From: Candidatus Bipolaricaulota bacterium
GTDB lineage: Bacteria > Bipolaricaulota > Bipolaricaulia > RBG-16-55-9 > DRXL01
Assembly: GCA_025060395.1 (NCBI GenBank)
Contig: JANXCC010000004.1
Location: 37,454 to 101,453 of the forward strand
Direction of reading: 5' to 3'
Length of the DNA: 64,000 bases
Shown here: positions 35,249 through 62,089 of the stretch, piece after piece
Numbering within the stretch: position 1 is the first letter of the stretch
Layout: each line of letters opens with the position of its first letter
Made by a program: the position numbers and the translations under genes
The notes under the pieces: generated by a model
The model's input: the letters and a program-made list of their open reading frames with translations, nothing else
The model's database searches: none
Told to the model about the DNA's origin: nothing

Positions 35249-35448
35249 AGTATCCTGATTTATCATACTAGGGTTGCCCACGAACTTCATTTCAGCCTTT
35301 CTCAGCAGCGAGAAGCATGTATGGGCCGAGGCCCAAATTGCGACGCCCAACAATCGCACAGCGGGGGGAGGATCCAAGTTCCAGCCCAGCGGTGCAGATT
35401 ACCCTCTAGGAGTATATAATTTGGCTAATGAAGGGGACGGATGAGCTA

Positions 35449-36335
35449 ATGAAGTATCTTCTGGTAGCAACAACTATCATGGAGGTTTAGGACTAGCTCT
35501 GCTACCATCTAGGAGTGAGGGGACAGTCGGCCAAGAGAGGCCACTTCTCGTGGGGGTGTCTCAAGATTTTCCCACTATACAAGCTGCCGTTGATGCCGTC
35601 GCGGAGTGAGGGACGGTGCTCATCGGTCCGGGGACTTACCAAGAGAGGATTCACATAGCAAAAAGCCTGCGCTTAATAGGAGCCAGCCGAGAGTTAGTGC
35701 TCATCAAAGCTGACAGGGCCATAGATGTAACAAATACGGAGAGGAGGCCCATGCAAGTCAGCCTCTCAGACCTCACGGTAGAGGCCCGGCAGCTCGGCAT
35801 TAGTGTTGGTCTGGGGCTTCCCAGGTGGGCATTCTTGCTGTAGGAAGTCATTTAAATCTTCAGAAGGCAACTATTAGGGAGAACTACATCGGGATCGCCC
35901 CTTACCTAGAGGCCATCTTAAGCGTTCAAGACTCGACCATTAAGGAGAGCAACATAGGTATAGCTGCTATCGTTGGGATTTTGAGAAGCGTCTTTATGGG
36001 AAAACGAGATCAACGCCAATGGAGTGGGGATCTATCTCGGCTACGATTTCTATCAGGAGAACCAAGGGTATTAGGGAAGATCGATCCCTCGACTGATATA
36101 GATGTATCAAAACAAAATTTTTGGGAACTTATATATACTATGGAATGGCTCTCCATCGCAAGGAGTGCGAGGATGAGGTCCTTAGCAAGATCATGGAAGG
36201 ATTCTTACCTTTACACCCGCTAGGATGGGGTGAGGCCTCGTTGGAAGGGACTGTCTTTACGGGATGGAACAACGAGATTCGAGATAATGGTAAGGGTGAC
36301 CTCTGCCCGCCCGACTACTCCTGGCGGGATTTAGG
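35449..36335 (+). pseudogene. decayed parallel beta-helix repeat protein gene
   Basis: Signal-like MKYLLVATTIMEV-stop. A second frame reads ...DFPTIQAAVDAVAE-TGA(35607)-GTVLIGPGTYQERIHIAKSLRLIG. The remaining repeats are split over two further frames (ORFs 35825.. and 36121..). Confidence 0.6.
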
Positions 36336-47668: not shown

Positions 47669-49063
47669 TTATAAGATATATCGGCTAAGGTCTAAGTCTT
47701 CGACAATGCCCTTGAGCTTGGCGTGCACATACGCAGCGTCGATGGTAAAAGTCTTCGGCTCAGGCAGATCGCACGTCTCAAAGGCAATATCTTCCATAAG
47801 TTTCTCCATCACGGTGTGCAAGCGCCGCGCCCCGATATTTTCTAAGCGCTCATTGAGGCGGAACGCGATCTCAGCAATCGCGTCGAGCGCATCATCCGTA
47901 AATTCTAGGCATAGCCCCTCCGTAGCCATCAACGCTTGGTACTGTTTTGTCAGGGCATCTTCAGGCTCCTTGAGGATCCGGCGAAAGTCTTCTTTGCTGA
48001 GGGGTTTAAGCTCAACGCGGATGGGGAGCCGCCCTTGGAGCTCCGGGATGAGATCCGACGGCTTAGACATAGTAAACGCTCCTGCTGCGATAAAGAGAAT
48101 ATTATCGGTGCGCACGTTGCCATAGCGGGTGCGTACCGTTGAGCCCTCCAAGATGGGCAAGAGATCGCGTTGCACCCCCTGCCGCGATACCCCAGGACCG
48201 AAGCGTTCCTCCCGCCCCCCTGCGGCGATCTTGTCAATCTCATCGATAAAAATAATCCCCATCTCTTCAGCACGTTGCACTGCCTGGCGCTTGATCTCAT
48301 CGAGATTGATGAGCTTATCAGCTTCTTCGTTGAAGAGCAGTTCGCGCGCCTCCTTGATCTTCATGCGCTTGACCGTGTAGCCGAAGCCCAAGGGATTGAG
48401 CTTCTCCAACAGCTCGCTCAGATCTACACCCAGCTGCTCCACCCCTTCAGCTGTGAAGAACCCGACTTGTGAGAAGGGGGACTCGCGCTTCACTCGGATC
48501 TCAACGTAGTGCTCTTCAAGGGCTCCGGCTCGCAACTTCTCTCGCAGCTTTTCGCGGGTCTGGCGCCAGGAGTCGCGACGTTCCTCATCCGCACTGCTGG
48601 GCGGCGTTGCCCCTATCAGGGCATCTAAGAGCCGCTCCTCTACGGCGCGCTCTGCTTCGTGCTTCACCTTCTCGATGGCCTCCTGGCGTACCATCTGGAA
48701 GCTTACTTCGACGAGATCCCGAACCATCGACTCGACATCGCGCCCGACATAGCCCACTTCAGTGTACTTTGTCGCTTCTACCTTTAAAAACGGTGCCTTG
48801 ATCAAGCTCGCAAGCCTGCGGGAGATCTCAGTCTTTCCCACCCCCGTAGGGCCGATCATCAAGATGTTCTTGGGAAGGATCTCTTTGCGGATGGGATCAG
48901 TCACGCGCATGCGTCGGATGCGATTTCTGAGAGCAATGGCCACCGCGCGCTTCGCCTCATACTGCCCAATAATATACTTATCGAGCTCGGCCACGATCTC
49001 CCTCGGGGAGAGCGCGCGTTTACTCGTGCGTTCGAACGCGTTGATCTCGACGATGTCAGCCAT
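47669..49063 (-). CDS. hslU: ATP-dependent protease ATPase subunit HslU
   Basis: [26 protein letters not shown], and C-terminal ...DLSRYIL. Confidence 0.95.
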
Positions 49064-49066
49064 CAG

Positions 49067-49615
49067 TCACCACTCAAGGGTTTCGATCGATATATGTTGA
49101 TTAGTATAGATATCCAACGCTCCTGCGATCTCCAGGGCTTTCCGCGCGATCTCCACGATGGGCAGTTGGGTGTTCTGGCGCAGGGCCTTGGCAGCCGCAA
49201 GCGCATAGGTTCCTCCAGACCCCAGCCCGATCATCTCGTCATCGGGCTCGAGAACATCCCCAGCCCCAGAGATCAGCAACAATCCTTCGGCGTTGACGAC
49301 AACCATCATGGCCTCTAAGCGCCGCAGGACTCTGTCGGTGCGCCAGTCTTTAGTGAGCTCGACCGCTGCACGCTTTAGGTTCCCGCCAAATTCTTTTAAT
49401 TTGCTCTCGAAACGCTCAAAGAGCGTGATGGCGTCGGCGGTCGCTCCGGCAAACCCCACCAAGACCTGATCGTTATAGATCTTGCGGATCTTTTTCGCCG
49501 TACTCTTTAGCACGACATTGTTGAGCGTCGCCTGCCCATCAGAAGCGATGACCGCGCGACGCTCCCGCGCTGAGCGAATCGCTAGAATAGTCGTGCCGTG
49601 GATACGCGCTTTCAT
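49067..49615 (-). CDS. hslV: ATP-dependent protease subunit HslV
   Basis: MKARIHG/TTILAIRS...GDGQATL and GSGGTYALAAA. Confidence 0.93.
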   Translation of the reverse strand: MKARIHGTTILAIRSARERRAVIASDGQATLNNVVLKSTAKKIRKIYNDQVLVGFAGATADAITLFERFESKLKEFGGNLKRAAVELTKDWRTDRVLRRLEAMMVVVNAEGLLLISGAGDVLEPDDEMIGLGSGGTYALAAAKALRQNTQLPIVEIARKALEIAGALDIYTNQHISIETLEW

Positions 49616-56731: not shown

Positions 56732-57064
56732 ATGCGCAAGATCGACTTAGTCGCTCAAGTAGCGCAGCGGACAGGAATGCCTAAGGAGGCCATTTTGAAG
56801 TCATTAAACGCCGCGCTTGCTGTGATCTCGGAGACGATAGCCCAGGGGGAAGAGGTGCGGTTAAAGGGATTTGGGACCTTTGTGGTACGACCGCGTCGCC
56901 CTACGCGGCGCAGCAATCTGTGGACTCGTCAGGTCTTTGCTATCCCAAGCAAGCCGATACCGCGCTTTGTCCCAGGAAAGGCTCTCAAGCAGCGTGTGCT
57001 CAGCAATCTCACCGTAGTAGAACTGCCAAGTGGACGTCTAGCTATCCGTCCAAAGTCTGGCTAG
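56732..57064 (+). CDS. HU/IHF-family DNA-binding protein with a C-terminal extension
   Basis: MRKIDLVAQVAQRTGMPK...VRLKGFGTFVVR...FVPGKALKQRV. Confidence 0.85.
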   Translation: MRKIDLVAQVAQRTGMPKEAILKSLNAALAVISETIAQGEEVRLKGFGTFVVRPRRPTRRSNLWTRQVFAIPSKPIPRFVPGKALKQRVLSNLTVVELPSGRLAIRPKSG

Positions 57065-58509
57065 AGGCGCTTCAAGAATTGCTCCGCTTCGTCTTTGTAA
57101 GAATGGAACGGATCGGCCAGGACGAGGGTGCGCTTAGGCTCGACGAAGACCCCGTCCCACTCGATCATATATTCGCCGACGGTTCGACCCCGTAAGCCGC
57201 GCACGATCAGAGCCCGCCCATAAGCCCTAGTGTCAGAAGGAGGCTCCTCTATAGCTCGTTCGATCTGGGAATTGCTTACGAGCCGCCGTCGCGACTCGAG
57301 CGCATAGTAGAGCCCTTGCTCCGGGTCTATATTGTGATATTCTAAATCTAGGCTATGTAAGGCATCGTCTTGCCAGGTGAGCCCTTCGGCGTCCTTGAAA
57401 AGCTGGATCATGGAGAATTTAGCGACCCAATCGAGGCGGTCAGCCAGCTCCATAGGATCGCGCTCGAGGGCGTCGAGGGTCTCTTCCCATTCGCGCAGGA
57501 CTTCATCGGTCTCCGGATCACGTCCGGCAAAGTGCCGCTGGGCGGCCTGCAGATAGAGGCGTTGCAGGTCGATGGCAGAGATCGTCGAACCATCGTCACG
57601 TCGGACGATCCAGGTGTGTGTCGGATCGCGAGAGATCTCCTTGAGGGCGCGCAATGGCGCGGCCAACTCCACCCCGGAGGGAACGGCTTGTTCTTCTAGC
57701 AGATCCAAGACCAAGATCGTTGTGCCCACCTTGAGAAACGTTGCGTATTCTGAGGGATTGGCCTCGCCAAAGAGCAGGTGGAGTCGTGGGCTGCGGGAGA
57801 GCTCGTACATCTGATCCCACTTGGGATTAATCAGGGCGCGGCTGAAGCGCACCCGCCCGGAGACCGTATGCAGAATATGATCGGCACGTTGAGAGAGCTG
57901 GAAGTCCACGGTTGGATCGGGCTCGACCCCGTAGGCTGAGTCGACAAAGACCGTATCGGCGATATGGCGGGACTTGGTCTGCCACGTGGTAGTCAAGCGA
58001 TGGCCACCGACCCGTCCCGCTCCAGCAAAGATCTGGCGTGTCACTAAGAAGGGGACTAATTTCTCGAGCGCATGCCGCCAGGAGAGCGACTCGGGATCGA
58101 CAGAATAATTCTCATGGCAGCCAAACGTATGGCCCGCAAAGTGATCGACGCTATTGTTATAGAAGCTGACTCGATCGTGGAGGCGGAGATCGCGCAATAC
58201 TTTCAAAATGAGTCGCTGTCCGGCTCGCTCGTAGGCGATCAAGTCGCGTAGCGATCGGCACTCCGGCGTAGCATACTCAAGGTGCGAGCCAACGGCATCG
58301 ATATAGAGCCGTCCCCCGTTGATTAAGAATCCTCCGGCCTCAGCAGGCTCAAAGTACATATCACGAGTATGCAAGTCGAGGAGACCCCAGCGTCTGTTGC
58401 GAAAGACCTCGTCCTTGACCCGCTCCACGATCTCTTCATAGGGCCCAAGTCGGGGATCGCGCACCAGACAGCCAAACTCCGTCTCCAGCCCGACAACGCG
58501 ATGATCCAT
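57061..58509 (-). CDS. pafA: Pup/UBact ligase PafA homolog
   Basis: 482 aa. GLETEFG...LEYATPEC...GCHENY. Lacks the insertion seen in the 501-aa paralog. It is the last gene of the proteasome operon. Confidence 0.8.
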   Translation of the reverse strand: MDHRVVGLETEFGCLVRDPRLGPYEEIVERVKDEVFRNRRWGLLDLHTRDMYFEPAEAGGFLINGGRLYIDAVGSHLEYATPECRSLRDLIAYERAGQRLILKVLRDLRLHDRVSFYNNSVDHFAGHTFGCHENYSVDPESLSWRHALEKLVPFLVTRQIFAGAGRVGGHRLTTTWQTKSRHIADTVFVDSAYGVEPDPTVDFQLSQRADHILHTVSGRVRFSRALINPKWDQMYELSRSPRLHLLFGEANPSEYATFLKVGTTILVLDLLEEQAVPSGVELAAPLRALKEISRDPTHTWIVRRDDGSTISAIDLQRLYLQAAQRHFAGRDPETDEVLREWEETLDALERDPMELADRLDWVAKFSMIQLFKDAEGLTWQDDALHSLDLEYHNIDPEQGLYYALESRRRLVSNSQIERAIEEPPSDTRAYGRALIVRGLRGRTVGEYMIEWDGVFVEPKRTLVLADPFHSYKDEAEQFLKRL

Positions 58510-58546
58510 CGTTCACGCTCCTGTTCATAACATTAGCTGATTGGGA

Positions 58547-59281
58547 TCATCTTGGCAAGAACGGCTTCAGTTCCTGGTCACTCAAGAAGCGGAAGCGGCG
58601 CTCACGCCGCGATACCCGCTCCAGGAAGGCCGCTTCGACCATGCCCGTCTTGAGCGCTTCGGAAAGCACAGCGCGCCATTCAAGCGCGGAGGAAGCTTCG
58701 TGGCGTCCTACCGCCCAGGCCTCGAGCGCCTTCTCCAAGGCCGCGTCTCGTTTGGGCACCTTCTTAGTGAACTCCACGAGCACGCGCTCCATCATCTCGC
58801 GAGCGCGCTCCGTCCCCGCCGCCACTCCAAAGCGATAGGTCAGCGAAAACTCCCCGTCATAGTTGAGCAGATAAAACAGATCGCTGTCGGGAGTATCGCC
58901 CAGCTGTGCAAAGAGCCCGCGCACGACTAAGGGTAATCGTAATGGATCGCTGAAGCTGCGCTTCATGGCTGGGCTGAGCGCCACGCCCACGACCCGTTGG
59001 ATCGAGACGTCTTGAGGGCTACGGGCAAACCCTTCCGCGTGAGCAAAGTCAACAGCGAGCTGGCGAATCGTTTCTAAGTCTGATTGATTGCCTAAGCCCG
59101 CAAATGCCAATCTATCGTAGATCTCGAAGATCTTCTGCTGGTGAGCGCGACGCACCGTCACTAACAAGATCCCTTCGTGACACGAGAGGCCCACGATGGG
59201 GCTCCCCTCGCGTAAGCGATCCTCAACGTAATCGGCCTTCTGACGGAGCGTTTGCTGCCAATCGTAGGGGGTGAATGCCAT
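58547..59281 (-). CDS. prcA: 20S proteasome alpha subunit (bacterial type)
   Basis: KIFEIYDRLAFAGLGNQSDLETIR pattern and no N-terminal Thr. Starts at ATG 59281, or at GTG 59287 overlapping the prcB stop. Confidence 0.85.
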   Translation of the reverse strand: MAFTPYDWQQTLRQKADYVEDRLREGSPIVGLSCHEGILLVTVRRAHQQKIFEIYDRLAFAGLGNQSDLETIRQLAVDFAHAEGFARSPQDVSIQRVVGVALSPAMKRSFSDPLRLPLVVRGLFAQLGDTPDSDLFYLLNYDGEFSLTYRFGVAAGTERAREMMERVLVEFTKKVPKRDAALEKALEAWAVGRHEASSALEWRAVLSEALKTGMVEAAFLERVSRRERRFRFLSDQELKPFLPR

Positions 59282-59283
59282 AG

Positions 59284-60078
59284 TCACTCTTTCAGCAAAG
59301 TCTTTTGGAGGGAGCGTAAGAGCTCTTCGGGGACGTCGGCGACGCCTTCAGCCGTTACGGTCTTAGCGAGGGGCAAGTGGTGATGAATCCCACCGGTTGC
59401 TGTGTCCAGAGACGCCGCGATCTCAAGCAAGAGGAGCGTCTCACGCAGTGCTGCTTCCAGCGTCATAGTGTGAAACGGGCCCTTAGTGCGCACGATATAC
59501 TCGAAGGCACCCCGAATCCGTTCTGCGCCAGAGCCAGCGGCACCGAACTCCCGGCTCTCAAAGCGCGCGCCCATCACATCGTAGAAGAATATACGCCCTT
59601 CATGCTTTTCCCTATCGAAGGCGCTGACGATGGGCAAGAACCCGCCGATCCCCTGAAGAGCCCCGGGGAGAGACCGACTGAGCACGCGCGAGACCTCAGA
59701 GAGTTTGCCCTCCAAACTGAGCTCTTGGAGCTGGCTCCGGGCATAGTACTTAAAAGAATGCTGCAAGAAGCGCACGGCCTCAAACGCTGCGGCGTAAGAC
59801 CCAGCAATAGCGATGAGCGTCTCATCATCGAGCTTTAAGATCTTTTCGGCCTCTTCATAGAAGATCGCGTTGCCCGCTGTAGCACGGCGGTCAGCGACGT
59901 TTAAGACGCCCTTATCGAACTTCACGGCGATGACTGTCGTGCCATGGGCCCAGACCCCGTTGGCACACTGCCCGTGGGTTCTATCTTCGCCGGCTGCAAG
60001 CTGGCGAGGGCGAATATCCCAGACGGAGTCTGGCATCCCATAGGCCTCAAGGAGCTTGGCGAAGTCGCCGTAGCTCAT
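59284..60078 (-). CDS. prcB: 20S proteasome beta subunit with a 46-aa propeptide
   Basis: ATG 60078. The propeptide ends ...VWAHG/TTVIAVKF. Asp17 and Lys33 are in register with Thr1. Confidence 0.9.
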   Translation of the reverse strand: MSYGDFAKLLEAYGMPDSVWDIRPRQLAAGEDRTHGQCANGVWAHGTTVIAVKFDKGVLNVADRRATAGNAIFYEEAEKILKLDDETLIAIAGSYAAAFEAVRFLQHSFKYYARSQLQELSLEGKLSEVSRVLSRSLPGALQGIGGFLPIVSAFDREKHEGRIFFYDVMGARFESREFGAAGSGAERIRGAFEYIVRTKGPFHTMTLEAALRETLLLLEIAASLDTATGGIHHHLPLAKTVTAEGVADVPEELLRSLQKTLLKE

Positions 60079-60082
60079 CGAC

Positions 60083-60253
60083 TCACTCTCCGCTGCGTTG
60101 GCGATAACGCTGCGCTTGCCGCGGGTCGACGCGGCGCATCCGCTCCAAGAGCCTCTCGGTGTCGGGCTTGGGCACATTGGGAGTGCGCGGGCCGTCGTCC
60201 GTGGGCTTGGTCAACGGATCCTGTGGTATGGGTCTTGTGATGCGTTCCGGCAT
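60083..60253 (-). CDS. UBact/Pup-family prokaryotic ubiquitin-like modifier (56 aa)
   Basis: Hand translation gives MPERITRPIPQDPLTKPTDDGPRTPNVPKPDTERLLERMRRVDPRQAQRYRQRSGE-stop. GGAGGA lies 6 nt upstream. Positioned between dop and prcB and absent from the ORF track. Confidence 0.75.
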   Translation of the reverse strand: MPERITRPIPQDPLTKPTDDGPRTPNVPKPDTERLLERMRRVDPRQAQRYRQRSGE

Positions 60254-60256
60254 CGG

Positions 60257-61762
60257 TTATCCTCCTTTCGTCTCAAGAGTCTGCTGTATGATACCCAAAA
60301 GCTCGCGTGGCGTCGAGACCCCCTTCGCCCAGTGAGGGAGCATTGCGACCCGACCGTCGACGAGCGAGCGCAGATCGATCGTGAAGTCTTGGCTGTTGTG
60401 CGAAAGCGTTATTCGCCCCCAGTTGAGCGCCCGGATGGCCGAAGAGAACTTTCTCACGCACAGCCCACGGATGTACGCACGTGTATCGTGTGGGGGGTCA
60501 TGGAGGGCGCGGACGATCTCGTCGTCAGAGACGAGTCGGCGCAGCATCCCTTGATTCTGTAACTCATAGAAGAGACCGCGAGTTGGATCGAGAGCGTGGT
60601 ACTCTAAGTCTAGACTTTGAACGATCTCATCGCGCCAGCTCAGCTTTTCAGTTTCAATAAAAGTCTGGAGCAATTGGCGCTTAGCGACCCAGTCGAGCCG
60701 GTCGGCACAGCGCATCGGATCGGCTTCGAGATCGTCCAGCACAGATTCCCATTCTTTCAGGAGCCAATCGGTCTCAGCGTCGCGATGGCCGAAGAGCTCT
60801 TGGGCGGCTTTCAGATATGCCCGCTGGACCTCAAGGGCTGAGAGAGTGCCTTCTTCTTCAAGCTCGACGAGCCATCTATAAGCTTGATCACGCGAGAGCT
60901 CTTTAAGCGTTTTAATGGGGTCTTTGAGGGTCCCAGGTGGGTCGTAGCCCGCTTCCAATAACCCCACAACCAGGGCTGTTGTACCGACCTTGAGGGCGAG
61001 AGCGTACTCGCTGAGGTTCGCATCCCCGCAGATGACATGCAGTCTTCTATAGAGTCTTTCATCGGCGTGCGGCTCGTCGCGACTATTTATGAGCGGGCGG
61101 CGATCCAGCGTGTCCACGCTGCACAACTCTGTAAAAAAATCAGCGCGCTGGGAGAGCTGAAAGTCGACCCAACTCTCCTCGCCACCGACGCGACCTGCTC
61201 CCGTAAAGAGAATGCGCGTTACCAGAAACGGAATCAGCCCGGCAATCAGCTTCTCGAAGGGGAGTGCCCGTGAGACTAAATAGTTCTCATGGCAGCCGAA
61301 GCTCATGCCGTGATAGTCGATATTGTTTTTAAAGATCGAGACGGAGCGTCTTGTCTTCTGAGCATAGGCTTGGGCTGCCGCCCAGACGATGCGTTCCCCT
61401 GCTTTGTCATGGGCGACAAGCTCCCGAAGTGACCGACACTCGGGGGTACTGTATTCGGGATGGCCGTGATCGTGATAAAAGCGTGCGCCGTTGGCTAAGA
61501 CTTTATCAGCGTGATCTTCAGAAGCACTTAAGTGTTTACGCGAGGGCTTTTCGTAGGCGTCGTCTTTGGGATTAGTTGTTAAAAACGGGGCACGCCAGCC
61601 ACGGGCATCTCGGAGAGGGTCTTCGTCGCGATAGTCCCAGGGCTGGGCAGAAGGCCCAGAATAGCTTTGCACAACGGCGCGGACCTCATCGACGAGATCC
61701 GTGACGTCCACACCATCTATGAGAATACCGTATTCAGTCTCGATGCCAAGCAAGCGATCCAT
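60257..61762 (-). CDS. dop: depupylase/deamidase Dop homolog
   Basis: ATG 61762, 501 aa. GIETEYG...PEYSTPEC...GCHENY. A ~50-residue insertion relative to the pafA paralog sits at the position of the Dop loop. Confidence 0.8.
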   Translation of the reverse strand: MDRLLGIETEYGILIDGVDVTDLVDEVRAVVQSYSGPSAQPWDYRDEDPLRDARGWRAPFLTTNPKDDAYEKPSRKHLSASEDHADKVLANGARFYHDHGHPEYSTPECRSLRELVAHDKAGERIVWAAAQAYAQKTRRSVSIFKNNIDYHGMSFGCHENYLVSRALPFEKLIAGLIPFLVTRILFTGAGRVGGEESWVDFQLSQRADFFTELCSVDTLDRRPLINSRDEPHADERLYRRLHVICGDANLSEYALALKVGTTALVVGLLEAGYDPPGTLKDPIKTLKELSRDQAYRWLVELEEEGTLSALEVQRAYLKAAQELFGHRDAETDWLLKEWESVLDDLEADPMRCADRLDWVAKRQLLQTFIETEKLSWRDEIVQSLDLEYHALDPTRGLFYELQNQGMLRRLVSDDEIVRALHDPPHDTRAYIRGLCVRKFSSAIRALNWGRITLSHNSQDFTIDLRSLVDGRVAMLPHWAKGVSTPRELLGIIQQTLETKGG

Positions 61763-61768
61763 ACAACT

Positions 61769-61777
61769 ATTATGCCA
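61769..61777 (-). promoter_or_regulatory. extended -10 element (TGgCATAAT) giving a leaderless dop transcript
   Basis: The minus strand reads TGGCATAAT-agttgt-ATG, so only 6 nt separate the hexamer from the ATG. Confidence 0.45.
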
Positions 61778-61832: not shown

Positions 61833-61861
61833 TTGACGAGCGGAGCAAGAGCCGTTATAAT
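61833..61861 (+). promoter_or_regulatory. tRNA operon promoter
   Basis: TTGACG 61833..61838, 17-nt spacer, TATAAT 61856..61861, 10 nt before tRNA-Asp. Confidence 0.6.
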
Positions 61862-61871
61862 GTGCCTATGC

Positions 61872-61948
61872 GGGGGTGTGGTGTAGAGGCCTAACACGCT
61901 GCCCTGTCAAGGCAGAGATCGCGGGTTCAAATCCCGTCATCCCCGCCA
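61872..61948 (+). tRNA. tRNA-Asp (GTC), CCA encoded
   Basis: Cloverleaf folded by hand: acceptor GGGGGTG/CATCCCC, D stem GTGT/ACAC, anticodon stem CTGCC/GGCAG with loop CTGTCAA, T arm GCGGG-TTCAAAT-CCCGT, G73, CCA. Confidence 0.93.
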
Positions 61949-62016: not shown

Positions 62017-62089
62017 GCCGAGGTAGCTCAGGTGGTAGAGCACAGGACTGAAAATCCTGGTGTCGGCGGTTCGAGTCCGCCCCTCGGCA
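62017..62089 (+). tRNA. tRNA-Phe (GAA), no encoded CCA
   Basis: Acceptor GCCGAGG/CCTCGGC, D stem GCTC/GAGC, anticodon stem CAGGA/TCCTG with loop CTGAAAA, T arm GGCGG-TTCGAGT-CCGCC, A73. Confidence 0.93.

What the first reader, a model, noticed from the sequence alone, without database searches (positions are those of the whole stretch)
57061..61777. Five-gene dop / small modifier / prcB / prcA / pafA operon in an apparently diderm, non-actinobacterial setting
The minus-strand genes from 61762 to 57061 are separated by 3 nt, 4 nt, 2 nt (or a 4-nt overlap) and 37 nt, and are driven by an extended -10 with a leaderless ATG.

- The 501-aa product carries a ~50-residue insertion (SGPSAQPWDYRDEDPLRDARGWRAPFLTTNPKDDAYEKPSRKHLSASEDHADKV) between GIETEYG and PEYSTPEC. 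The 482-aa paralog lacks it. That is the position of the Dop-specific loop, hence the dop and pafA assignments.
- PrcB has a 46-aa propeptide (…AHG|TTVIAVKF) with Thr1, Asp17 and Lys33.
- The window also encodes OMP-like barrels and lipobox proteins. Pup-proteasome systems outside Actinobacteria (UBact-type, as I recall reported in Nitrospirae, Verrucomicrobia, Armatimonadetes, Nitrospinae and Planctomycetes) are known only from sequence and have essentially no biochemistry.
Basis: partly seen in the sequence, partly recalled or inferred. Interest (0 to 1): 0.8.

Follow-up and report, generated by a model that had tools for sequence, protein, structure and literature searches.

The report
UBact-proteasome tagging operon in Bipolaricaulota
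This is an intact five-gene operon for tagging proteins with the small modifier UBact and degrading them in a 20S proteasome, carried by an uncultured Bipolaricaulota (Acetothermia) bacterium; it is real, but public databases already catalogue this kind of system under that name, and it still has no published biochemistry that I could find.

Summary
On the minus strand lie dop (60257-61762), UBact (60083-60253, ending RSGE), prcB (59284-60078; 46-aa propeptide, Thr1/Asp17/Lys33), prcA (58547-59281) and pafA (57061-58509), with the stated spacings. All five match their families. All are under strong purifying selection across 11-15 related genomes.

The contig is GCA_033581635.1, labelled Candidatus Bipolaricaulota. 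This phylum is a non-actinobacterial sister of Thermotogae and the literature treats it as diderm.

The dop and pafA assignments hold on active-site motifs and the Dop-loop. Whole-protein scores and fold do not separate the 482-aa paralog from Dop.

It is not new. GenBank already names this exact protein "ubiquitin-like protein UBact". A member of the same ≥90%-identity cluster is UniProt's UBact of Ca. Acetothermum autotrophicum.

Two small points are added here:
- In this subclade the unfoldase gene mpa has left the cluster. Relatives carry it as a stand-alone gene, while Armatimonadota and deeper Bipolaricaulota keep mpa-dop-UBact-prcB-prcA-pafA.
- The operon instead starts at a conserved extended -10 (TGGCATAAT), 6-7 nt before the ATG.

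Verdict: already known, ordinary. Its value is as a possible thermophile-lineage source for first UBact biochemistry.

The parts
61769..61777 (-). Extended -10 element TGGCATAAT, 6 nt upstream of the dop ATG. It is the putative promoter of a leaderless five-gene transcript.
   Evidence: The sequence was read directly. CATAAT is conserved in all 13 clade relatives. The TGn extension is present in 12 of 14 sequences (window plus 13 relatives). Spacing of 6-7 nt to the ATG holds in 11 of 14. There is no Shine-Dalgarno sequence. Lineages that keep mpa upstream have a Shine-Dalgarno sequence at this position instead. Function is inferred; no transcript data.
60257..61762 (-). dop: UBact depupylase-type amidase, 501 aa
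   Evidence: PF03136 at 527.7 bits. TIGR03688 (Dop) scores 460.7 against 357.1 for TIGR03686 (PafA). phmmer E-value 1e-107 to Acidothermus Dop 4B0R. AlphaFold2 model pLDDT 92.8, with Foldseek TM 0.89-0.90 to Dop structures against 0.76 to PafA. E8/E10, D98-H99, H158-E159 and R240-H242 are invariant among 64 homologues. dN/dS is 0.07-0.11.
61499..61657 (-). Dop-loop coding segment (residues 36-88: GPSAQPWDYRDEDPLRDARGW...HADKV)
   Evidence: Absent from the 482-aa paralog. Aligns with the Acidothermus Dop-loop. W42, Y44, E47, D52, R54 and G55 are invariant in 64 homologues. WDY and PLRDARG are the conserved Dop-loop residues studied in M. tuberculosis (PMC9556782).
60083..60253 (-). UBact: 56-aa Pup-like modifier ending ...RYRQRSGE (C-terminal Glu, so ligation-ready without deamidation)
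   Evidence: PF20513 at 72.5 bits (cut-off 27.8). NF033388 at 76.7 bits (cut-off 35). The C-terminal 35 residues are almost invariant in 15 relatives. dN/dS is 0.01-0.07. GenBank MDW8030614.1 is named 'ubiquitin-like protein UBact'. GGAGG lies 7 nt upstream of the ATG.
59284..60078 (-). prcB: 20S proteasome beta subunit, 264 aa. The propeptide is coded by 59941-60078 and the Thr1 codon is 59938-59940.
   Evidence: PF00227 at 83.7 bits and TIGR03690 at 132 bits. The best PDB hits are Rhodococcus and M. tuberculosis beta subunits. Mature chains align from residue 47. Thr1, Asp17, Lys33, GSG and D-x-x-T-G-G are present. dN/dS is 0.05-0.08.
58547..59281 (-). prcA: 20S proteasome alpha subunit, 244 aa (or 246 aa from the GTG at 59287)
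   Evidence: TIGR03691 at 79 bits, covering the full length. PF00227 at 22.8 bits, just above its cut-off. PDB hits are M. tuberculosis and Rhodococcus PrcA, E-value 1e-11. The N-terminus MAFTPYDW resembles the N-terminus of M. tuberculosis PrcA as I recall it (MSFPYF...; from memory, not shown in the alignment). dN/dS is 0.05-0.14.
57061..58509 (-). pafA: putative UBact ligase, 482 aa. Its stop overlaps the convergent HU gene (56732-57064, + strand) by 4 nt.
   Evidence: PF03136 at 411.7 bits. It has no Dop-loop. Its catalytic neighbourhood YIDAVGSHLEYATPE matches C. glutamicum PafA YLDVGSHPEYATAE, not Dop YVDHAHPEYSTPE. His211 and the C-terminal DPF tail are as in PafA. E9/E11, D71, H132-E133 and R242-H244 are invariant in 64 homologues. 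dN/dS is 0.03-0.09.

Best explanation
This is a functional UBact-proteasome system, the non-actinobacterial counterpart of the Pup-proteasome system, in a Candidatus Bipolaricaulota bacterium.

Inferred mechanism, by homology to the actinobacterial pathway:
- UBact is made with a C-terminal glutamate, so it needs no deamidation.
- The PafA-type ligase uses ATP to phosphorylate that glutamate's gamma-carboxylate. It then joins it to lysine side chains of target proteins.
- The Dop-type amidase, regulated by its Dop-loop, removes and recycles the tag.
- Tagged proteins are unfolded by an Mpa/ARC-type AAA ATPase. They are then degraded in the PrcA/PrcB 20S core, whose beta subunit self-activates by cleaving a 46-residue propeptide to expose Thr1.

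In this subclade the ATPase gene is no longer part of the cluster. The five remaining genes form their own operon, most likely transcribed from a conserved extended -10 promoter as a leaderless mRNA. Downstream genes are translated from their own Shine-Dalgarno sites or by coupling.

Shown here: gene order, family membership, intact catalytic residues, conservation and purifying selection. Inferred: every biochemical step and the transcript start.
For: - Family matches for all five genes and PDB homologues.
- Catalytic residues are intact and invariant across 64 homologues of each enzyme. PrcB has Thr1, Asp17 and Lys33.
- Dop and PafA are discriminated by the residues that Hecht et al. 2020 (PMC7947786) showed to separate the two activities.
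- The same five-gene order occurs in most of the 14 species-level Bipolaricaulota/Acetothermia/Fraserbacteria genomes, apart from truncated contigs and one locus without pafA, with shared flanking genes.
- dN/dS is 0.01-0.14 for all five genes.
- UBact's C-terminal ~35 residues are near-invariant and end in RSGE.
- The canonical six-gene cluster with mpa is present in Chthonomonas calidirosea and in a deeper relative.
- Mpa homologues exist in this subclade as stand-alone genes, in the order cold-shock gene, mpa, HAD gene.
- The promoter motif is conserved.
Against: - No Mpa/ARC gene lies in the window or within 10 kb beyond the operon on its dop side. I could not check the rest of this genome.
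- The 482-aa paralog ties between the Dop and PafA models (289.6 against 289.0). It scores higher against Dop than against PafA structures.
- A small NJ tree does not resolve its orthology (45% bootstrap).
- Its 'alpha-loop' is not predicted helical, though pLDDT there is only 66-73.
- It carries INPKWD where actinobacterial Dop and PafA have INTRDEPHAD. This is lineage-wide rather than a local defect.
- All equivalog-level NCBIfam cut-offs for Dop, PafA, PrcA and PrcB are missed.
- UBact-lineage Mpa proteins end in [VI][VI], not in the GQYL docking motif I recall for actinobacterial Mpa. Docking to the 20S core is therefore unproven.
- No experimental data exist for any UBact system in the held literature.
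Confidence: 0.8

Rival explanations
1. The tagging module works, but in this subclade it is functionally uncoupled from Mpa. UBact conjugation would serve mainly regulatory, non-degradative roles, as pupylation does in proteasome-less Corynebacterium. Alternatively the 20S core would be fed by a different activator.
For: - mpa has left the cluster in all 14 clade genomes.
- The operon has acquired its own promoter.
- UBact-lineage Mpa lacks a penultimate-Tyr C-terminus.
- HslUV is also present, about 7.5 kb away.
Against: - prcB and prcA sit between the UBact gene and pafA and are as constrained as the tagging genes.
- Stand-alone mpa genes 94-99% identical to each other persist in close relatives.
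- Gene relocation does not imply functional uncoupling; actinobacterial pafA is often unlinked too.
Confidence: 0.1
2. The 482-aa paralog is not the ligase but a second amidase or an inactive homologue. UBact ligation would then be done by something else, or by the 501-aa protein.
For: - Whole-protein scores tie or favour Dop.
- The NTRDEPHAD motif is replaced by INPKWD.
- The alpha-loop helix is not predicted.
- The NJ tree weakly groups the two UBact-lineage paralogs together.
Against: - It lacks the Dop-loop.
- It has the PafA-type D-x-VGSH-EYAT neighbourhood around the catalytic Asp, His at the start of the alpha-loop, and the PafA-like DPF C-terminus.
- Its active-site residues are invariant across 64 homologues spanning Bipolaricaulota and Armatimonadota.
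- A conjugation system needs a ligase, and the other paralog is clearly Dop-type.
- Hecht et al. place Nitrospirae Dop and PafA in the two actinobacterial clades.
Confidence: 0.06
3. The operon is a decaying relic, or an assembly or binning artefact such as actinobacterial contamination or recent horizontal transfer.
For: - All equivalog cut-offs are missed.
- One relative (L007) lacks pafA.
- Three relatives carry a toxin-antitoxin cassette inside the operon.
Against: - There are no frameshifts or stops.
- dN/dS is 0.01-0.14.
- The operon lies on a 489-kb contig with even GC content of 54-58%.
- Flanking housekeeping genes are syntenic in other Bipolaricaulota MAGs.
- Identity to actinobacterial homologues is only 36-46%, against about 60% to Armatimonadota.
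Confidence: 0.03

Closest known systems
UBact of Candidatus Acetothermum (Acetithermum) autotrophicum, UniProt H5SQ95, with its neighbouring Dop-like gene H5SQ94
   Same: - It falls in the same ≥90%-identity protein cluster as the window's UBact.
- It is from the same phylum.
- The Dop homologue H5SQ94 is 83% identical to the window's Dop.
- Its Mpa ('Proteasome-activating AAA-ATPase') is 94% identical to the stand-alone Mpa of clade relatives.
   Different: It is a different MAG or fosmid source. Nothing functional differs as far as sequence shows. Neither has been studied experimentally in the held literature.
Canonical UBact loci, for example Chthonomonas calidirosea (Armatimonadota): mpa-dop-UBact-prcB-prcA-pafA. 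The family was described by Lehmann et al. 2017 (BBRC). I cite that paper from memory, since it is not held in the library.
   Same: - Same five genes in the same order.
- PafA is 60% identical.
- UBact has the same C-terminal ...RYRQRSGE.
- The PafA-lineage traits are the same: AVGSH, a ~30-aa insertion, and INPKWD.
   Different: - There mpa directly precedes dop, and dop has a Shine-Dalgarno sequence.
- In the window's subclade mpa is elsewhere. tRNA-Asp, tRNA-Phe and gcvH occupy the upstream side, and dop starts 6 nt after an extended -10.
- A deeper relative (L020) has UBact ending in Gln, which would need Dop deamidation.
Actinobacterial Pup-proteasome system (M. tuberculosis, Rhodococcus, Acidothermus)
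   Same: - Homologous Dop (46% identity over shared columns), PafA (36%), PrcB and PrcA.
- Same Dop-loop motif.
- Same catalytic residues.
- Same logic: a disordered C-terminal-Glu tag, a ligase, a depupylase and a 20S core.
   Different: - The tag is UBact, basic and ending RSGE, rather than Pup, acidic and ending GGQ/GGE. It matches the UBact models only; no Pup model was hit.
- All enzymes fall below the actinobacterial equivalog cut-offs.
- The PafA lineage has an insertion and a changed NTRDEPHAD motif.
- Mpa C-termini differ.
- The host is a diderm Terrabacterium that also has HslUV.

Membership tests
UBact (Pfam PF20513 / NCBIfam NF033388) | Small protein matching the curated UBact models above their cut-offs | tested here: met
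   72.5 bits against a cut-off of 27.8, and 76.7 bits against 35. GenBank names the identical protein UBact.
UBact (Pfam PF20513 / NCBIfam NF033388) | C-terminus R-[ST]-G-[EQ], providing the glutamate for isopeptide formation (motif as I recall it from Lehmann et al. 2017) | tested here: met
   The protein ends ...RYRQRSGE*. The same ending is seen in 15 relatives and Chthonomonas; L020 ends RSGQ.
UBact (Pfam PF20513 / NCBIfam NF033388) | Encoded between a Dop-like gene and prcB | tested here: met
UBact (Pfam PF20513 / NCBIfam NF033388) | Covalent attachment to substrate lysines | not testable with these tools
   Requires biochemistry or proteomics.
Dop depupylase/deamidase (TIGR03688) | Dop-loop with a conserved Trp and the PLRDARG motif next to the active site | tested here: met
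   PWDYRDEDPLRDARGW aligns to RWDFEEENPLRDARGF of 4B0R. These residues are invariant in 64 homologues. The literature on the motif is PMC9556782.
Dop depupylase/deamidase (TIGR03688) | Dop-type residues flanking the catalytic Asp (Y-x-D-H-x-HPEY-S-[AT]-P-E; Hecht 2020, Table 1) | tested here: met
   FYHDHGHPEYSTPEC.
Dop depupylase/deamidase (TIGR03688) | Score above the NCBIfam equivalog cut-off | tested here: not met
   460.7 against a cut-off of 492.3. The model is trained on Actinobacteria. The Dop model still beats the PafA model by 104 bits.
PafA Pup ligase (TIGR03686) | No Dop-loop, and PafA-type residues around the catalytic Asp (L-D-V-G-S-HPEY-A-T-A-E) | tested here: met
   LYIDAVGSHLEYATPEC, with one extra residue and Pro in place of the last Ala. 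The D-x-VGSH-EYAT pattern is detected in 94 of 120 lineage homologues.
PafA Pup ligase (TIGR03686) | 'Alpha-loop' forms a helix (PafA) rather than a loop (Dop) | tested here: inconclusive
   AlphaFold2 predicts a short helix, a strand and coil for residues 207-227, at pLDDT 66-73. The pattern is nearly the same in the Dop model. The PafA-specific His at the start, plus two Ser, are conserved.
PafA Pup ligase (TIGR03686) | Score above the equivalog cut-off and better than the Dop model | tested here: not met
   289.0 (PafA) against 289.6 (Dop), with a cut-off of 551.3. PDB phmmer scores are 238 for Dop and 192 for PafA.
PafA Pup ligase (TIGR03686) | ATP-dependent ligation of the tag to lysine | not testable with these tools
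   Requires an enzyme assay.
Bacterial 20S proteasome beta subunit (TIGR03690) | Ntn-hydrolase with a propeptide cleaved before Thr1, plus Asp17 and Lys33 | tested here: met
   ...AHG|TTVIAVKFDKGVLNVAD17...EK33. Mature PDB chains align from residue 47. The score of 132 is below the equivalog cut-off of 191.9.
Bacterial 20S proteasome alpha subunit (TIGR03691) | Full-length homology to PrcA, encoded directly after prcB | tested here: met
   The TIGR03691 match covers positions 1-228 of 229 at 79 bits, below the cut-off of 139. PDB PrcA hits have E-value 1e-11. GenBank calls it 'hypothetical protein'.
Complete Pup/UBact-proteasome gene cluster | Mpa/ARC AAA ATPase encoded in the cluster, upstream of dop | tested here: not met
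   None found in the window, within 10 kb beyond the operon on its dop side, or in 14 clade loci. It is present in Chthonomonas and L020, and unlinked in clade relatives. The window genome's own copy was not checked.

The most novel reading that the evidence does not exclude
In this Bipolaricaulota subclade the tagging-plus-20S module has become a separate, leaderless transcription unit, regulated independently of the unfoldase. UBact-lineage Mpa proteins end in [VI][VI] rather than a Tyr-containing docking motif. Together these could mean that substrate delivery to the 20S core works differently from the mycobacterial model, through a different docking mode or a different activator.
Probability: 0.15. 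Interest if true: 0.5.

Novelty: already known. Interest (0 to 1): 0.27.

Why it matters
- UBact systems are the only proteasome-linked tagging systems known in diderm bacteria, and I found no published biochemistry for them.
- Several of the related MAGs carry hot-spring or serpentinite-style sample names. Its proteins could therefore be stable material for a first reconstitution of UBact ligation, removal and degradation.
- The comparison with lineages that keep mpa in the cluster gives a natural case of how the module is rewired.
- None of this changes what is known about the kind of system. The locus is already correctly named in GenBank, apart from the two proteasome subunits.

Tried and rejected
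- **Mpa in the window and relatives.** I used a Walker-A pattern search and tblastn with two UBact-lineage Mpa proteins. Nothing was found, so adjacency is rejected.
- **This genome's own mpa.** Candidate P0133 turned out to belong to another assembly.
- **NJ tree of Dop and PafA.** I built it with PDB anchors reconstructed from printed alignments. With only one actinobacterial PafA anchor, the deep split had 45% bootstrap support, so it is not informative.
- **AlphaFold2 and Foldseek to separate ligase from amidase**. These clearly support Dop for the 501-aa protein. They do not discriminate for the 482-aa protein.
- **Generic sigma-70 scan**. It did not report the dop promoter. Conservation analysis was needed instead.
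- **Rfam scan of the window**. It found only the two tRNAs.
- **Literature.** The Lehmann 2017 paper is not held. Searches combining Acetothermia or Bipolaricaulota with proteasome gave nothing relevant.
- **Pfam scan for outer-membrane barrels** among unassigned window ORFs. None was found.

Full report
**Observation**

The minus strand between 57061 and 61762 carries five ORFs of 501, 56, 264, 244 (or 246) and 482 aa. The public gene calls for the same contig are identical.

Pfam and NCBIfam assign them as follows:
- 501 aa: Pup_ligase, 3e-158.
- 56 aa: UBact. PF20513 scores 72.5 bits and NF033388 scores 76.7 bits, both well above the curated cut-offs.
- 264 aa: Proteasome, with the bacterial 20S beta model.
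- 244 aa: bacterial 20S alpha model.
- 482 aa: Pup_ligase, 5e-123.

Coordinates of the RSGE terminus, the 46-aa propeptide, the Dop-loop and the TGGCATAAT element were re-read directly.

**Where it comes from**

The 501-aa protein is encoded on NCBI assembly GCA_033581635.1, contig JAVQSW010000001.1 (489 kb). The window runs in the record's orientation. GenBank labels the organism Candidatus Bipolaricaulota bacterium.

A scan of one genome per species found 14 loci encoding Dop proteins 71-85% identical to the window's. All are MAGs labelled Bipolaricaulota, Acetothermia or Fraserbacteria, apart from one labelled 'Thermotogae'. They share the operon and its neighbours: gcvH and gcvP on one side, HU, a PKD lipoprotein and TauE on the other. 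GC content is even across the window. The setting is therefore not actinobacterial and not a chimera.

On the envelope:
- The literature places Bipolaricaulota and Fraserbacteria next to Thermotogae among diderm Terrabacteria, with split OmpM-like tethers and CsaB (bioRxiv 10.1101/2021.05.31.446380).
- A preprint reporting the first isolate of the phylum describes it as Gram-negative with a toga-like outer membrane (10.1101/2025.11.21.689855).
- An earlier genome study was undecided between a monoderm and a simple diderm envelope (PMC6092417).
- The window has a CsaB-type pyruvyl transferase, and a relative has LptC next to the operon.
- I found no recognisable outer-membrane barrel in the window.

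**The genes**

*PrcB.* Its best solved relatives are the Rhodococcus and M. tuberculosis beta subunits. The mature chains start at query residue 47, which gives ...AHG|TTVIAVKF with Asp17 and Lys33, plus the GSG and D-x-x-T-G-G elements.

*PrcA.* It is divergent, but it aligns over its full length with the bacterial alpha model and with M. tuberculosis PrcA.

*The 501-aa protein is Dop-type.*
- It scores 460.7 on the Dop model against 357.1 on the PafA model.
- It aligns end to end with Acidothermus Dop, including the loop motif WDY..E.PLRDARG. This is the conserved loop sequence studied in M. tuberculosis (PMC9556782).
- Its AlphaFold2 model (pLDDT 92.8) matches Dop structures at TM 0.89-0.90, against 0.76 for PafA.

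*The 482-aa protein is harder.*
- It ties between the two NCBIfam models.
- It scores better against Dop than against PafA structures.
- Its predicted fold does not discriminate.
- A small NJ tree is unresolved.

The residues that Hecht et al. 2020 used to convert Dop into a ligase decide the matter (PMC7947786). Around the catalytic Asp, the 501-aa protein reads FYHDHGHPEYSTPE, which is the Dop type. The 482-aa protein reads LYIDAVGSHLEYATPE, which is the PafA type. The 482-aa protein also lacks the Dop-loop, has the PafA His at the start of the alpha-loop, and shares the C-terminal DPF tail with C. glutamicum PafA.

The predicted alpha-loop is not helical, but confidence there is low, so I count that test as inconclusive.

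UBact-lineage PafA proteins from Bipolaricaulota and Armatimonadota also share a ~30-residue insertion. They have INPKWD in place of INTRDEPHAD. This is a lineage trait, not a defect of this copy.

**Is it alive?**

- Active-site residues are invariant among 64 homologues of each enzyme.
- Pairwise dN/dS against 11-15 relatives is 0.07-0.11 (dop), 0.01-0.07 (UBact), 0.05-0.08 (prcB), 0.05-0.14 (prcA) and 0.03-0.09 (pafA). Synonymous sites are near saturation, so the ratios are approximate.
- UBact's last ~35 residues are nearly invariant, and every member of the subclade ends in Glu.

**What differs from the canonical cluster**

Chthonomonas calidirosea (Armatimonadota) and a deeper relative (L020, PafA 62% identical) have mpa-dop-UBact-prcB-prcA-pafA.

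In the window and all 14 clade loci there is no AAA ATPase near the operon. In the window, tRNA-Asp and tRNA-Phe and gcvH lie upstream. The rest of the window holds only HslU as an AAA+ protein.

Mpa homologues do exist in the subclade as stand-alone genes beside a cold-shock gene:
It therefore appears to be on the same contig, more than 10 kb from the operon.
- It is 94% identical to the 'proteasome-activating AAA-ATPase' of Acetithermum autotrophicum.

I could not verify the copy in this particular genome.

The promoter fits this rearrangement:
- The dop ATG lies 6 nt after TGGCATAAT, with no Shine-Dalgarno sequence.
- The CATAAT hexamer is conserved in all 13 relatives.
- The TGn extension is present in 12 of 14 sequences.
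- Spacing of 6-7 nt to the ATG holds in 11 of 14.
- Several relatives also have a TGACA -35-like element 17 nt upstream.
- The lineages that keep mpa have a Shine-Dalgarno sequence before dop instead.

**Comparison with what is known**

- Pup-like systems outside Actinobacteria have been noted since 2008 (PMC2588565). They are listed for several phyla by Hecht et al..
- The UBact family has its own Pfam and NCBIfam models.
- GenBank names the window's protein 'ubiquitin-like protein UBact'.
- A member of the same ≥90%-identity cluster is UniProt H5SQ95, 'Prokaryotic ubiquitin-like protein UBact' of Candidatus Acetothermum autotrophicum.
- From memory, Lehmann et al. 2017 listed Acetothermia and Fraserbacteria among candidate divisions with UBact. 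That paper is not in the held library, and only citations of it were found.
- A single-sequence search of 1.84 billion cluster representatives found 115 UBact-like representatives. Nearly all match at their C-terminus.

The system is therefore already known for this phylum. What I add is three things: the functional split of the two 'PafA2 family' genes, corrected roles for the two proteasome subunits, and the relocation of mpa with a new promoter in one subclade.

**Verdict**

Its value is practical, as a possibly thermostable UBact system for first biochemistry, rather than conceptual.

Noticed in passing
window 47669-49615 (-): HslV (182 aa) and HslU (464 aa) lie about 7.5 kb from the 20S proteasome operon. 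This organism therefore carries both HslUV and a true proteasome. A relative (L008) shows the same arrangement.
   Followed up: partly
L005 11680-12395; L014 1295-1782; L016 2814-3288: Three related genomes have a two-ORF cassette inserted between UBact and prcB. The copies are about 80% identical to each other. By eye the ORFs resemble a HicB-like antitoxin and a HicA-like toxin, but this was not scanned against any family library. The cassette is absent from the window. L020 has a UPF0150/HicB-family gene right after pafA.
   Followed up: partly
L007 5604-7192: In MAG SKW78 a full-length prcA is followed directly by TauE. pafA, HU and the PKD gene are missing from this locus, with no run of N. 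This is either a real deletion, a relocation or a misassembly.
   Followed up: no
P0121-P0240 (Mpa homologues of UBact lineages): All 120 Mpa homologues end in [VI][VI], for example ...GEMVV or ...ESVV. None has a penultimate Tyr. As I recall, actinobacterial Mpa docks through a C-terminal GQYL motif, so docking here may differ.
   Followed up: partly
window 58547-60078 (-): In GenBank the beta subunit is named 'proteasome subunit alpha' and the alpha subunit 'hypothetical protein'. Both Dop and PafA are named 'PafA2 family protein'. The evidence here supports beta, alpha, Dop-type and PafA-type respectively.
   Followed up: yes
window 61833-61861 (+): A near-consensus sigma-70 promoter (TTGACG, 17 nt, TATAAT; 11 of 12 matches) lies just upstream of tRNA-Asp (61872-61948) and tRNA-Phe (62017-62089). 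It is divergent from the dop promoter about 60 nt away.
   Followed up: no
window 35378-36330: This ~950-bp stretch has no called gene. It holds only short, broken ORFs that look like fragments of a beta-helix protein. It lies next to the CsaB-type pyruvyl transferase and a DUF5693 gene. It may be a pseudogene.
   Followed up: no
window 57061-58509 (-) and homologues P0001-P0120: UBact-lineage PafA proteins share a ~30-residue insertion after GAGRVGGHRLT. They have INPKWD where actinobacterial Dop and PafA both have INTRDEPHAD. The functional meaning is unknown.
   Followed up: partly
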